Origin: Eledone cirrhosa
Taxonomy: Eukaryota
Assembly (NCBI GenBank): GCA_964016885.1
Contig: OZ024743.1
Span: forward strand, 42,098,001-42,162,000
Length of the DNA stretch: 64,000 bases
Direction of reading: 5' to 3'
The notes under the pieces were generated by a model. The model did not search any database. It was not told where the DNA came from and was given only the letters and a program-made list of their open reading frames with translations. A program made the translations under genes and the position numbers. Below, piece by piece: positions 19,080 to 45,521 of the stretch. Numbering within the stretch: the first letter of the stretch is position 1; every line of letters begins with the position of its first letter.

Positions 19080-19765
19080 GACGTAAAAGAAGAAAATTAT
19101 AAAAATTAACTTACTTACTAAAACTATAGTCGCAGTTTTGGCCAATTTTGGCTCAACATGTTCTGCATTCCCATTCATTGAACCACAAAGTTACTAAGAC
19201 AAAACCTATGTATTTGCTGGCATAGGTATGCATCTATATATATATGTTAGTAGATATACTAATTATTTATAATTATCTCCAAATTATTTTGTTGAGCCAA
19301 AATTGGCCAAAACTGCTACTATAGTTCATAGTAATGGTTCGGCTGCTGTCTTCTTAACAAACCATTCCTCACTGATTAACCTCGATGTCACGTGATTGAT
19401 TCTTTTGAATTTGCCACCGACGCAGTAGGCAGTGATTTTTTCAATGTCTTGGAACTTAGTTTACGCTTTGCTTTTTTCCATCCACTGGATTATTTTTGTA
19501 TAAGTTCCCTGTGTCCACGCATCGCCTGGAAAGTTAGCTGAGAATAGACTTCCCTGATGACGAAAGGCTTCTCGGTACGTTTCTTCGGAAACTATGTTTA
19601 TTCCCTTTCAGAAACTAATTAGTTGGAGTGAAATTTTAGTAAGTAAGTTAATTTTTATAATTTTCTTATTTTACGTCATTCATATTATTGTCCTGCATCC
19701 CCATGCATTGAACCACAAAGTTACTAAGACAAAACCTATATATTTGCTGGCATAGGTATGCATCT
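19080..19765. mobile_element. Rearranged non-coding pseudo-LTR-like unit with nested inverted and direct repeats and an HHR
   Basis: 19080-19123 is inverted at ~19634-19677; ~19123-19157 is inverted at 19291-19326; ~19163-19235 is repeated directly at ~19693-19765; homolog at ~45395-45569. Confidence 0.75.
19548..19629 (+). ncRNA. Type I hammerhead with branched stem II containing a UUCG hairpin (family D)
   Basis: ACTTCC-CTGATGA-c-GAAAGG..GTTTC TTCG GAAAC..CCTTTC-a-GAAA-CTAATTAG-TT|GGAGT. Confidence 0.72.
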
Positions 19766-19861
19766 GTATATATATATATATATATATATATATATATATA
19801 TATATATATATATATATATATATAGAGAGAGAGAGAGAGAGAGAGAGAGAGAGAGAGAGAG

Positions 19862-19995
19862 ATGCGAGAAAAACCACAAACCCTCCATCTCAATTCTTGT
19901 TTCGAAAAGCAGAAGAACTGAGAAACCGGTAAAGGAAACTAATAAATATTCTTAAAAAGACTCCAGTTTCATTTTCGATTTCATATTTTTTTTTC
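19862..19995 (+). repeat. Partial copy of the 29628-30673 family with a degenerate family E HHR (19899-19934)
   Basis: gaaaagcagaagaactgagaaaccggtaaagg. Confidence 0.7.
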
Positions 19996-20494
19996 CTTAA
20001 ACTTTCACTCGTGTAGTACATCTCAATTTTTTTCATTCTGAAAATAAAAACACATTTTCTTATATATATGTATATTTCACATTTTCTGCTGAGATAGCAA
20101 CGGAAGAAAATGAGAGTAGCAATATATTTTCTGCAAGAGTGTAGTCATGAATAAGTATTTATAAAGTTTGCTTACATGTTTTTCATTAAGGATTTATTAT
20201 TAACAAAGTCAATGCTTTTAGACAACACATATTTATATTTTGATAATATAGAATCTTGTATCAGAAAAATCTAAATATAAGTATGTTTCTTAAACATTTC
20301 TCACAAACGAACATAAATTATTTTGTAATCAATATAAACAGCTGAAAGCAGTACATTTAAAGAGAAGATTTTAAGACAGCTGGATACACCACTATCTTCA
20401 CTAAAACACATTTCACTTCAAATAAGCACTATATACATACCTGAAGCATCCAGGAATAACATAATATATATTTTATTGAAATAATTTATCCATG

Positions 20495-20745
20495 CGCCAT
20501 ATAGGGTCTGAGACTTAGACACTGACCAAGAAACTCACTCAGATAGTGGTTGGGTGCTACACGAGAATGCTGTGGATGGCTCTGAACATTAATCAGTATA
20601 CACTGAGGATGAAAAACTCAGAGCTGTACGGGAGCCTCCCAAAAGTCAGCTCGAAAGTGACTCAGAGGAGACTGAAGTTAACTGGACATGCTCACCGACA
20701 TCCAGAGTTGACACTGCACTCAGTGCTCTTGTGGCAGCGATAATG
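20495..20745 (+). mobile_element. RTE/RTEX-like LINE C-terminal fragment
   Basis: GCYTRMLWMALNI..RRLKLTGHAHRHPE. Confidence 0.65.
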
Positions 20746-21149
20746 AGGGTCAGAGACTGCTGAAGATACTCGTCAATGGATCTCCGAAATTTTACTCGCC
20801 CTAAAACTACACATATACGAACACCATGGCAGTCTTTGCTAGAAAAATGACATCAACTATCAATTTAGATGCATCTTAACCATGAAAATAATCTTAATTT
20901 TAAAATGTGCCTGGCAACGTCATATATTTGTATAATAATGCAGTATCTGTTGCTTCCACAATATTCATGATATGTACACTTTGTTAAGGTGCGATCAGTA
21001 ATTACTGATAAAATAAATTTAGAAGAGTATAGCAGAATTGGGAGCCATAATATCGTCAACTCTACTGATCACTGAGAATGTTAAGGTTCATCTGCAGAAT
21101 ACAGGCAATGAACCTCGAGTAACAAGGACGATATTGCTATGCGATTCCA

Positions 21150-22290
21150 CGCCCCAAAAATAGTTTGATGATGAAAGATAGTGTTTAGGAGATGTCACTT
21201 GTCCTTTACAGATTGGTTTCATCCGCTATTCACCACTCCTCTCACAAATAGTAACATGAGATGAATCGTGGGGACCCCAGTGTCTTGGCTGCTACAAATG
21301 TCAAGACGTTTAACAATGGAATATGTGAGAGTCGTGTGCTCTCTTATTCATATGTGCAACATCCGGACGTTACTTTCAGTGCACAGGGAGATACAGTTTT
21401 GTACAAGTGATCTAAAATGCCAAACACACTCTTCAGCTTACGTCTGTGTTGTTGATAGGACAATCAGGAATGTTGCACATATGATTGTAGTTTGGATTCG
21501 ACCTATAGAGCAGTCTTTTCAATGAGTGTCTCGAGTACGCTAGCGGTATATTCAGTCACTCCATACTGTTGTCTTGTCTTAAGGCAGCTGTCGTCTTCTC
21601 AGTAAAGTAAGGCAGCTTCAGGCATCATATGTTATCACTTGGGCTCATGTCCTCATTGTTCTTTAAAGTGTTGCTACCTTGGCGCTTTGGTGTTTCGTGA
21701 GAGAAATGGGGTATTTGTTTTAGCTGAGAACTCGCTGGAATTACAAAGTGTTTGAATGTCTGTCACTATCCTCGCTGCATTGTTGCGTAACCGAGTGTTC
21801 TCATTCCGTATTTAGGCCATTTCCGCCATTTCAGGTCTGAGTCATGTTGCACAAACATTTCTCTGCAGGCACCCTTCTTACACAATTGGGTGTGCATATG
21901 CACCTTTCGTTAGTGACTCTTAGTGTAAAGTCGAGTGAAGTGAGGTGTCTAGGCGCTCAACCTCATATTTCACGTACCTGCGGAAGAAAGTGTAAGAGTG
22001 GCAGGTATTCAGTGATGTGCGCTCCACCTTGTCCATGTAAATGATAGCCAGAAAGACTTGACGTCATCGGAAGTCCTAAAATTTGTTTGTAGACAAGGCC
22101 TTCAAAATGGAAAAGTGTGTTGCATATGATTATATAGAGTAGGTGATATCGGTAGAGGTTTTTATATAGACCGCAATTAAGTTGTTGACCTTGATGGGAC
22201 AGAGTTGTAGAGAGAAACTATATTTAAACTAAATGAGTATCAAATTTTCAACATCTTCGAAAATGTAGACACACTCTCTGCTAGTGGGAC
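21150..22290 (-). mobile_element. Degenerate Penelope-like element (RT plus GIY-YIG)
   Basis: Minus-strand reading: IVSLYNSVP; FHFEGLVYKQILGLPM; LAIIYMDKVE; FFRRYV; decayed Y-GESTR near 21350. Confidence 0.65.
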
Positions 22291-22319
22291 AGTAGGTGAT
22301 ATGTTGTGAGAAGCCGCTG

Positions 22320-44345: not shown

Positions 44346-44399
44346 ACACGAACACAGGCTGAATAAAACACTTGGCCAGGAACTATTATTGCAGTGATG

Positions 44400-44560
44400 A
44401 TATCATCTGTTGGTGACGTTTGAGAAACAGGATGAAAGCTTCTGAGCCAACGGGATCCAATTAAAGAAGCGTGTGCACCGCAAGGGTGATTATGTTGAAA
44501 AGGACACGCCATTTGGTCAAGTTCCAGGTCAGCCGATGAACTTTTCAACCGACCCACGTA
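44400..44560 (-). mobile_element. Possible Tc1/mariner terminal fragment
   Basis: Minus strand begins TA-CGTGGGTCGGTTGAAAAGTT, a mariner-TIR-like sequence. Confidence 0.35.
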
Positions 44561-44997
44561 ACATGTAATTGATTTCAAAATTTATCACGGAAATGCTAAT
44601 TTTATTCATTGTATTCAATTCATAATGTTGTAAGTGTCCAGACATGTGCAACTATTCCGGAATTTTAACGATGTTTAAGCCCTGTCTCTTGGGTGAACCG
44701 CCACATTGCACATACACACACACACACGCAAGCACTATACACACACACACACACACACACACACACACACACACACACACACACACACACACACACATCC
44801 ACACACATTCTCTCTCTCTCTCTCTCTCTCTCTCTCTCACTATATATGTATATATATATATATATGTGTGTGTGTGTGTATGTATTTGTATATATGAATA
44901 TCGTATTTCTAAAGAAATACGGTATGTTAGTAAATAAACATTCTGAAAGCCTACTCGGAGCTAAATTCCTATTATGTTCCGTATAACCATGTCCATT

Positions 44998-45037
44998 ACG
45001 AGCTGAGGATCCGCTAAGGTGAGACAATTGTTTTTGG
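44998..45037 (+). ncRNA. Degenerate family A hammerhead (GAGA in place of GAAA)
   Basis: CGAG-CTGAGGA-T-CC gctaa GG-T-GAGA-CAATTG-TT-TTTGG. Confidence 0.6.
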
Positions 45038-45076
45038 TATGGTGAACTAACTGTTGTGTAACCAGTTCTATATATA

Positions 45077-45322
45077 TGGCTTAGTGGTTAAAGCATTGGG
45101 CTTACAATCGAAAGGTTGTGAGTTCAATTCTCGGACCGGGTGATGTGTTGTTTGCTTGAGCAAGACACTTTATTTCACGTTGCTCCAGTTTACTCAGCTG
45201 TAGAAATGAGTACCGCCTGCCCGCCCAGCCAGTTGGATGGCGTTATCTTATGGCTAAAACAGCACGGCGTGCTGTGACCAGCGGCGCCGGTTGGCGCCCG
45301 TCAGACTGGTCAGTCAAGGTGA
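45077..45322 (+). mobile_element. Second SINE family copy with a different GC-rich tail
   Basis: Head and core match 44108; sequence diverges after gtagaaatgag. Confidence 0.8.
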
Positions 45323-45443
45323 TATATATATATACACACATACAAAATTATACATATATATATATATACATATATATATATATATATATATGTATAAGTT
45401 TCCAGAGTCCACGCTTTGCCTGGATACTTAGCTGAGAATAGTC

Positions 45444-45521
45444 TTCCCTGACGACGAAATGCTTCTCCATATTTTCTTCGGAAAGTATATTTATTCCATT
45501 TCAGAAACTAATTAGTTGGGA
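45444..45521 (+). ncRNA. Type I hammerhead, family D second copy
   Basis: TTCC-CTGACGA-c-GAAATG..TTTC TTCG GAAA..CATTTC-a-GAAA-CTAATTAG-TT|GGGA. Confidence 0.72.

What the first reader, a model, noticed from the sequence alone, without database searches (positions are those of the whole stretch)
19548..45521. Hammerhead family with branched stem II, UUCG tetraloop and visible covariation between two copies
Seen: stem II is GAAAGG/CCTTTC at 19562 but GAAATG/CATTTC at 45456, a G-C to T-A double change. Both copies keep an internal TTTC-TTCG-GAAA hairpin and the palindromic stem III CTAATTAG although the surrounding sequence has diverged. Positions 10.1/11.1 are a C-A mismatch in both. Inference: an accessory domain in stem II is under structural selection, possibly for a tertiary contact or protein binding.
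Basis: partly seen in the sequence, partly recalled or inferred. Interest (0 to 1): 0.75.

Follow-up and report, generated by a model that had tools for sequence, protein, structure and literature searches.

The report
Pseudoknot-braced hammerhead in Penelope-dependent repeat

Summary
Both motifs are real type I hammerheads in two subfamilies of a 521-556-nt tandem/inverted repeat sitting in (TA)n tracts (10,835 pattern matches, control 0). Stem II covaries strongly: in 27 subfamily representatives one pair shows all four Watson-Crick states. It is not branched: it is 6 bp, a pyrimidine internal loop, then a cap hairpin. cUUCGg caps only about a third of copies (3,615). The conserved part is the loop strand UUCUC, which likely pairs with upstream GAGAA as a pseudoknot: GAGAA/UUCUC 8,685, GAAAA/UUUUC 687, G·U 133, A·C 77. 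That swap arose in one lineage; a distant family keeps the pairing. The 'C·A pair' is better read as two unpaired insertions around a fixed G10.1-C11.1: an older subfamily has A·A, and no subfamily seen pairs them. Direct junctions to a Neptune/Nematis-type Penelope element suggest the mobiliser. Cleavage is untested, and the GUU site is likely slow. The scan noted this family and its pseudoknot before on other DNA (e1-9962588, e1-9585305); I could not reproduce their spike of copies starting at the cut site. Verdict: new structural variant of a known kind.

The parts
19159..19775 (+). Copy 1: about 1.2 units of the 526-nt repeat (subfamily A), ending in a (TA)n tract
   Evidence: 95% to a doubled unit A, positions 61-673; TA tract from 19767
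19071..19158 (-). Two short inverted fragments of the same unit (unit positions about 11-62 and 192-236) joined in front of copy 1
   Evidence: blastn; sequence
19532..19536 (+). 5' strand of a predicted distal stem I helix (ACUUA in the family; AGUUA here, one private change)
   Evidence: RNAalifold pairs columns 5-9 with 122-126
19540..19544 (+). GAGAA, 5' strand of the predicted pseudoknot
19548..19553 (+). Stem I 5' strand ACUUCC (4 contiguous pairs with GGAG, or 5 with a bulged U)
19554..19561 (+). Core CUGAUGA plus inserted C (position 9a)
19562..19609 (+). Extended stem II: IIa 19562-19567/19604-19609; internal loop 19568-19573 (UUCUC at 19569-19573) and 19597-19603; cap helix 19574-19596 with UUCG at 19584-19587
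19610..19624 (+). Inserted A (11a, 19610), GAAA, palindrome CUAAUUAG, U16.1 and U17; predicted cut after 19624 (GUU)
19625..19644 (+). Stem I 3' strand GGAGU, U-rich stretch, and UAAGU (19640-19644) of the predicted distal helix
45385..45578 (+). Copy 2: 5'-truncated piece of the 521-nt unit (subfamily B) between (TA)n tracts
   Evidence: 96% to unit B; sequence
45434..45438 (+). GAGAA, pseudoknot 5' strand of copy 2
45448..45517 (+). Hammerhead of copy 2: CUGACGA, C, IIa 45456-45461/45497-45502, UUCUC 45463-45467, UUCG 45477-45480, A, GAAA, CUAAUUAG, UU; predicted cut after 45517
45518..45523 (+). Stem I 3' strand GGGAAU; close relatives have GGGAGU, so this copy has lost one pair by a private change

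Best explanation
This is a type I hammerhead motif carried once per unit by a non-coding 521-556-nt repeat that is likely a Penelope-dependent retrozyme, and its long stem II likely works as a scaffold that presents the loop strand UUCUC to pair with the upstream GAGAA, a predicted pseudoknot that would hold stems I and II side by side so that the RNA would cut itself at GUU. Shown: the core, helices I and II with compensating changes, the unbranched helix-loop-helix build, the variable cap, the palindromic stem III, the tandem and inverted arrangement in (TA)n tracts, and direct junctions with a Penelope-like element. Inferred: the pseudoknot (about 0.7); two copies pairing through the palindrome to form stem III (about 0.6); self-cleavage of tandem transcripts into monomers that are circularised and copied by a Penelope-type reverse transcriptase (cleavage about 0.65, the rest by analogy with published retrozymes). 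The C and A at the base of stem II are read as unpaired insertions flanking a normal G10.1-C11.1 pair.
For: Core plus palindrome in 10,835 places, control 0. In 27 hand-picked representatives: IIa pair 2 is AU 10, GC 8, UA 7, CG 2 with none broken; pair 5 is UA 14, GC 11, 2 broken; 4 of 4 outer cap pairs doubly changed; 93.6% of cells paired against 24-48% for slid controls. Stem I has 4-7 contiguous pairs in 32 of 33 representatives, with matched length changes. Pseudoknot pair 3 genome-wide: G-C 8,685, A-U 687, G·U 133, A·C 77, all listed, scattered over subfamilies and 21 of them in a shifted register by my reading. Another loop position is changed in only 60 scattered copies. A distant family with different stems, palindrome CCGCGG and site GUA keeps 6-bp IIa, the loop and GAGAAA/UUUCUC. 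The palindrome gives a -10.8 kcal/mol duplex between two copies and no hairpin alone. Position 9a is C or A by subfamily (490 non-C); position 11a is non-A in 49 scattered copies. Units are 34-36% GC and fold better than shuffles as circles (z -2.9 to -11.6, 12 shuffles each). Unit joined without a TA tract to an RT/GIY-YIG element in L122, L123 and L259. Pseudoknots between stems I and II raise cleavage rates in other hammerheads (PMC3088659), and the mirror-image build is described in HDV-like circles (PMC7936874).
Against: No cleavage or expression data. The pseudoknot swap traces to one lineage, so the large copy counts are one event, reached through a G·U subfamily; pseudoknot position 6 is unpaired in 17 of 27 representatives. 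GAGAA can also pair with the 3' U-tract as a longer stem I, and one subfamily shows a U-A to A-U swap that fits that pairing. U17 is a slow cleavage site by my recollection, and it can pair with A14, as RNAalifold draws it, which would block the core. Pair 5 of IIa is a mismatch in several small subfamilies. No spike of 5' ends at the predicted cut: 2 of 58 starts mapped to +15..-2 lie at +1. Rfam has no hammerhead hit, even at E 10. The linked Penelope element has its own, different hammerhead and 17,172 copies; it lies in 7 of 98 loci of this family while 0 of 30 of its loci hold this unit, and both prefer TA tracts. Eight of nine Xenopus retrozyme dimers did not cleave in vitro (10.64898/2026.07.22.740005).
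Confidence: 0.65

Rival explanations
1. No pseudoknot in the active fold: GAGAA pairs with the 3' U-tract to extend stem I, and the pyrimidine internal loop makes non-canonical contacts or binds a protein such as the Penelope reverse transcriptase.
For: AGAAU/AUUUU or AGAAUA/UAUUUU plus the distal ACUUA/UAAGU helix can be drawn in the main family; the MFE of copy 2 uses it; one subfamily changes both sides (GGAAAAAG with GAUUUUUUAG). The 3' loop strand UUUAYYC is conserved without a partner that I could find.
Against: It does not explain why UUCUC became UUUUC just where GAGAA became GAAAA. The distant family has no 3' U-tract yet keeps GAGAAA/UUUCUC.
Confidence: 0.17
2. GAGAA/UUCUC pairing is real but inhibitory: it closes a nested hairpin over the core and competes with stem I, acting as an off state that limits cleavage to some transcripts.
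For: The MFE of copy 1 pairs CUGAGAA with UUCUCGG at the expense of stems I and II; the duplex alone is -5.7 kcal/mol. A slow GUU site and a dimer-type stem III fit a damped ribozyme.
Against: Copy 1 carries a private change that lengthens this helix. The spacing from both helices is short and steady (2-3 nt from stem I, 0-3 nt from IIa), as expected for a brace. RNAfold cannot draw pseudoknots, so its MFE is biased to the nested form.
Confidence: 0.1
3. The fold is kept as a recognition or packaging signal for the Penelope machinery and no longer cleaves at a useful rate.
For: Fixed GUU, two core insertions, no spike of starts at the cut site, and low or absent in vitro activity of many Penelope and retrozyme hammerheads (PMC4209133; Li et al. 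2026).
Against: Every catalytic core base is kept across subfamilies only 67-91% identical and in a distant family with the better site GUA; junction density falls about threefold just upstream of the site.
Confidence: 0.08

Closest known systems
[quoted passage not shown]
   Same: Type I layout, short helix I, an extra base between A9 and G10.1, fixed G10.1-C11.1, palindrome at 15.2-16.2, many covarying families in one genome, copies in opposite strands a few hundred bases apart.
   Different: Helix II here is 6 bp plus an internal loop plus an 8-10 bp cap; a second extra base (A) lies before G12; the palindrome is 8 nt; a pseudoknot is predicted; no copy was found flanking an ORF as a terminal repeat.
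Metazoan non-LTR retrozymes (Cervera and de la Peña 2020, PMC7229834, passages; Li, Clavereau and Pollet 2026, 10.64898/2026.07.22.740005, parts 1-3 of 5)
   Same: Non-coding, low-GC tandem units with one type I hammerhead each; proposed dependence on Penelope-like elements; self-paired when folded as a circle.
   Different: Units of 521-556 nt exceed the 170-400 nt of the 2020 paper (inside the 51-972 bp of the 2026 preprint); the hammerhead is of the Penelope type, not the canonical 6/4-bp type; circular RNA is not shown here.
Pseudoknotted hammerheads (Perreault et al. 2011, PMC3088659, passages) and the atypical type III hammerheads of toad and termite HDV-like circles and Drosophila pseudoobscura (PMC7936874, passages and section 3.1)
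   Same: A 5-6 bp helix and a 6-bp helix bridged by Watson-Crick pairs; an internal loop capped by an extra hairpin donates one strand.
   Different: Mirror image: there the internal loop and cap are in helix I and pair with loop II of a type III ribozyme; here they are in helix II and pair with the 5' flank of a type I ribozyme that also has a dimer-type stem III and two core insertions.

Membership tests
Type I hammerhead ribozyme | Core CUGANGA, GAAA and a RUH cleavage triplet in type I order | tested here: met
   GUU fits RUH as given in PMC7936874
Type I hammerhead ribozyme | Three helices around the core, kept by compensating changes | tested here: met
   Helix II; helix I; helix III invariant within the family but a different palindrome in the distant family
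Type I hammerhead ribozyme | C11.1 directly followed by G12 | tested here: not met
   An extra A lies between them; non-A in 49 of 10,835
Type I hammerhead ribozyme | Match to an Rfam hammerhead model | tested here: not met
   No hit at gathering score in the window or at E up to 10 in 19400-19760
Type I hammerhead ribozyme | Site-specific self-cleavage | not testable with these tools
   Indirect test on 5' ends of copies was inconclusive
Penelope minimal hammerhead | Extra base between A9 and G10.1, with fixed G10.1-C11.1 | tested here: met
   C or A by subfamily; G-C in 27 of 27
Penelope minimal hammerhead | Short helix I (4-5 bp) and palindromic stem III | tested here: met
   4-5 contiguous pairs in 25 of 33, 6-7 in 7, 0 in 1; palindrome
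Penelope minimal hammerhead | Simple 7-8 bp helix II and little or no helix III | tested here: not met
   6 bp plus internal loop plus cap; 8-nt palindrome
Penelope minimal hammerhead | Lies in the terminal repeat of an RT + GIY-YIG element | tested here: inconclusive
   No ORF flanked by this unit in the loci scanned, a few hundred of about 11,000 copies; the neighbouring Penelope element has its own hammerhead
Non-LTR retrozyme | Non-coding tandem units, each with a type I hammerhead, GC under 45% | tested here: met
   Tandem arrays; GC 34-36% in five units
Non-LTR retrozyme | Monomer of about 170-400 nt with canonical loop 1-loop 2 contacts | tested here: not met
   521-556 nt; no terminal loop 2 at the canonical place; the mussel retrozyme also lacks these contacts and the 2026 preprint allows 51-972 bp
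Non-LTR retrozyme | Expressed as abundant circular RNA | not testable with these tools
   Needs RNA data from this organism
Pseudoknotted hammerhead | Watson-Crick pairing between the peripheries of stems I and II, with covariation | tested here: met
   4-7 pairs possible in 33 of 33 representatives (no shuffled control); one double change seen genome-wide
Pseudoknotted hammerhead | Rate falls when the pairing is broken and is rescued when restored | not testable with these tools
   Bench test

The most novel reading that the evidence does not exclude
An undescribed hammerhead build: a dimer-type Penelope hammerhead with insertions on both sides of the base of stem II, rescued to useful speed by a pseudoknot from an internal loop of stem II, in which GAGAA switches between that pseudoknot (on) and an extended stem I (off), so the repeat RNA would cut as a tandem transcript and stay intact as a circle.
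Probability: 0.25. Interest if true: 0.72.

Novelty: new variant of a known kind. Interest (0 to 1): 0.52.

Why it matters
Penelope-type hammerheads are reported to cut poorly in vitro and to lack the usual stem I-stem II contact, which leaves open how they work in cells. This family offers a concrete, testable answer: a base-paired brace supplied by an internal loop, with natural G-C, G·U and A-U versions and a natural short-cap version to compare. It also shows a core insertion before G12 that is kept across several families in this genome, which widens the hammerhead consensus, and it explains why Rfam models miss about 11,000 copies. It is not a new class of ribozyme or of mobile element.

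Tried and rejected
Rfam: no hammerhead hit. Sequencing runs: no RNA holder listed; the three runs laid are contigs of one sample and gave only DNA variants. One search used a structure string shifted by one column on the 3' side of stem II and was discarded; one search is the corrected count. The two distant-family rows were misaligned in A1 and were left out of A2, so the pair counts use 27 of 29 representatives. Branched stem II: rejected. UUCG as the selected feature: rejected. A specific C·A pair: rejected, since A·A defines an older subfamily and C-G or U-A occur only as scattered copies. The unit as terminal repeat of the neighbouring Penelope element: rejected, since that element ends in its own hammerhead. 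Spike of 5' ends at the cut site: 11 hits for the 6-bp types without a control; (100 of 192 rows, read by hand, indel and substitution mutants dropped) starts were +3:8, +2:12, +1:5, -1:12, -2:16 against at most 17 over -3..-7; (100 of 230 rows, about 79 unique, about 12 internal deletions dropped) 40 starts lay at +15..+6, 9 at +5..+1, 9 at -1/-2 and 8-9 at -3..-10. That is a step, not a spike; reverse-transcriptase stalling at the fold or shortness bias would give the same. A second pseudoknot or triple helix for the 3' loop strand: considered by eye, not consistent across subfamilies. GTAAGT as a splice donor: considered; pairing with ACUUA explains it as well. Lünse et al. 2017 on Penelope hammerhead variants was not held and was not seen.
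Full report
Observation. Both motifs are at the stated places. Copy 1 reads CUGAUGA (19554), C, GAAAGG, 36 nt, CCUUUC, A, GAAA, CUAAUUAG, UU, GGAGU. Copy 2 reads CUGACGA (45448), C, GAAAUG, 35 nt, CAUUUC, A, GAAA, CUAAUUAG, UU, GGGAAU. The G-C to U-A change at pair 5 is real. The copies are 87% identical over 196 nt, so features shared by just these two say little. Rfam gives no hammerhead hit.

The element. The genome is a 3.0-Gb animal assembly. The pattern CTGANGA-N40-60-GAAACTAATTAGT matches 10,835 times, control 0. The motif sits once per unit of a repeat that occurs as head-to-tail arrays with inverted, 5'-truncated pieces beside them, in (TA)n tracts. 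Five units measured 521-556 nt, 34-36% GC and 67-91% identical to each other. Copy 1 is about 1.2 units with two inverted fragments in front; copy 2 is a 194-nt truncated piece. This arrangement and target match what Craig et al. describe for Penelope-like elements (PMC8557442, passages). I found no ORF flanked by the unit in the loci scanned, which cover a few hundred of about 11,000 copies.

Stem II. Folded alone, 29 representatives gave no multi-way junction; most give a 6-bp helix, a pyrimidine-rich internal loop of about 6 by 6-7 nt and a cap helix. On 27 of them (hand-picked, roughly one per subfamily; the two distant-family rows were dropped as misaligned), the proximal helix is 98.8% paired: pair 2 is AU 10, GC 8, UA 7, CG 2; pair 5 is UA 14, GC 11, broken 2; all four outer cap pairs have double changes; no shuffle of 500 reached the observed pairing, double-changed cells or covariation score, while 9 and 153 of 500 reached the two pair-count measures; slid controls fall to 24-48% paired. 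The tool warns that relatedness inflates these numbers, but four Watson-Crick states at one pair need at least three double changes on any tree. RNAalifold recovers both helices unaided. Pair 5 is a mismatch in some small subfamilies. The cap loop is free: cUUCGg matches 3,615 times, and other subfamilies use AUUC, AUUU, UUAC-containing loops or a short cap.

Pseudoknot. The loop strand UUCUC is complementary to GAGAA, which lies 2-3 nt upstream of stem I. Genome-wide counts for the middle pair are G-C 8,685, A-U 687, G·U 133 and A·C 77. The A·C copies are scattered over subfamilies, and 21 are in a shifted register by my reading; the G·U class includes a small subfamily next to the A-U one. 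These are copy counts: the listed flanks form one series, so this is one event. Later offshoots keep 6 pairs (GAAAAG/CUUUUC, GGAAAA/UUUUCC). A distant family with a unit of about 485 nt, different stems, palindrome CCGCGG and site GUA keeps the same helix lengths and GAGAAA/UUUCUC. Against: position 6 is unpaired in 17 of 27, and GAGAA can instead pair with the 3' U-tract, with one fitting double change. The 3' loop strand UUUAYYC stays unexplained.

Core. Cervera and de la Peña report an extra base between A9 and G10.1 and a fixed G10.1-C11.1 in Penelope hammerheads (PMC4209133, parts 1-2 of 4). Here G-C is fixed (27 of 27). The base before it is non-C in 490 of 10,835, mostly an older subfamily with A among the 100 rows listed; the base after it is non-A in 49 scattered copies, all listed. 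So I read two unpaired insertions, not a C·A pair. The same C...A frame appears in other hammerhead-like families of this genome, though that search pattern required it. Stem I has 4-7 contiguous pairs in 32 of 33 representatives. The palindrome forms a -10.8 kcal/mol duplex between two copies and no hairpin alone, in line with the dimer model (PMC6765202, passages). GUU fits the RUH rule; that it is slow is my recollection, and PMC1636495 (passages) did not address it. U17 can also pair with A14.

Mobiliser. A Penelope-like element with weak RVT_1 and GIY-YIG hits, both under Pfam's cut-offs, and a CX4CxxC motif before the nuclease, as described for Neptune and Nematis, is joined to the unit with no TA tract in L122, L123 and L259, across a short tract in L121 and tail to tail across a long one in L124. 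Direct joins suggest template switching by one enzyme. But the element has its own minimal hammerhead and 17,172 copies; 7 of 98 loci of this family hold it and 0 of 30 of its loci hold the unit.

Does it cut? Untested. Two earlier notes of this scan on the same family (e1-9962588, e1-9585305, listing text only) cite copies starting at the cut site. I tested this with patterns that pick 5' junctions and read the rows by hand. Junctions are about three times rarer just upstream of position -2 than at +3..-2 (53 against at most 17, p 1e-5) or at +8..-2 (27 in 10 positions against 9 in 8, p 0.013). But +1 holds only 2 of 58 starts in +15..-2, and +15..+6 is as dense. This is a step, not a spike, and does not show cleavage.

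Comparison and novelty. It works like a non-LTR retrozyme with a Penelope-type hammerhead (PMC7229834, passages; Li et al. 2026 preprint, parts 1-3 of 5). Pseudoknot braces are common in hammerheads and raise rates (PMC3088659, passages), and the mirror-image build is known from HDV-like circles (PMC7936874, passages and section 3.1). Seven searches of the held library showed no description of a type I Penelope hammerhead with an internal-loop pseudoknot in stem II or an insertion before G12. Most hits were seen only as listings, I saw no figures or supplements, and Lünse et al. 2017 was not held; the supplementary family alignments of Cervera 2014 and Perreault 2011 could contain this motif. 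I reached the pseudoknot reading (note) before seeing the scan's earlier notes, which are not independent support.

Verdict. Observation partly confirmed; interpretation partly supported. A real, selected hammerhead variant with a likely pseudoknot; the branch and the UUCG are not the point. New variant of a known kind, interest 0.52.

Noticed in passing
window 23287-23320 (+), also 1-35 and 45002-45035: A small hammerhead-like family CUGANGA-U-CC..GG-U-GAAA-CAAUUG-UU with U·U at the base of stem II, a palindromic stem III and again a GUU site.
   Followed up: no
window 29417-29475 and 45955-46015 (+): Two copies of another hammerhead-like motif with A/T-rich stem I, stem III UAUAUA or UAUGUA and an interrupted stem II.
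   Followed up: no
window 13025-13815 and 14162-14200 (+): Fragment of a Neptune/Nematis-type Penelope ORF, 70% like the partner element, followed by a minimal hammerhead-like motif.
   Followed up: partly
window 22509-23030 (+) and 38111-38986 (-): ORF pieces that look by eye like other Penelope-type linker and GIY-YIG regions; no Pfam hit at cut-off.
   Followed up: partly
window 3953-3995 and 7058-7090 (+): Further single CUGANGA...GAAA motifs with short stems; not tested for family support.
   Followed up: no
window 25727-25844 (-) and 45077-45134 (+): A degenerate 5S rRNA copy and a partial tRNA-like stretch, probably a SINE head.
   Followed up: no
window 54100-61500: GC-rich stretch with ORF pieces that look by eye like a LINE (ORF1, endonuclease, RT).
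   Followed up: no
L105, L131-L134; L117, L128, L129; L113: Three other hammerhead-like families with long stems II, C...A at the base, and stems III UACGUA or CCAUUGG/CCUUUGG.
   Followed up: partly
L177, L178, L181: Three copies share a clean deletion of the whole hammerhead, joining the GAGA of the upstream strand straight to the base after the predicted cut.
   Followed up: no
window 19680-19725 and L143: Motifs TGTTCTG and CATTGAACCAC, 60-110 nt after the predicted cut, are shared by the main and the distant family; possible promoter or RT-recognition site.
   Followed up: no
L061, L099, L097 cap loop: In several subfamilies the cap loop holds the palindrome UUACGUAA, a possible second dimer contact.
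   Followed up: no
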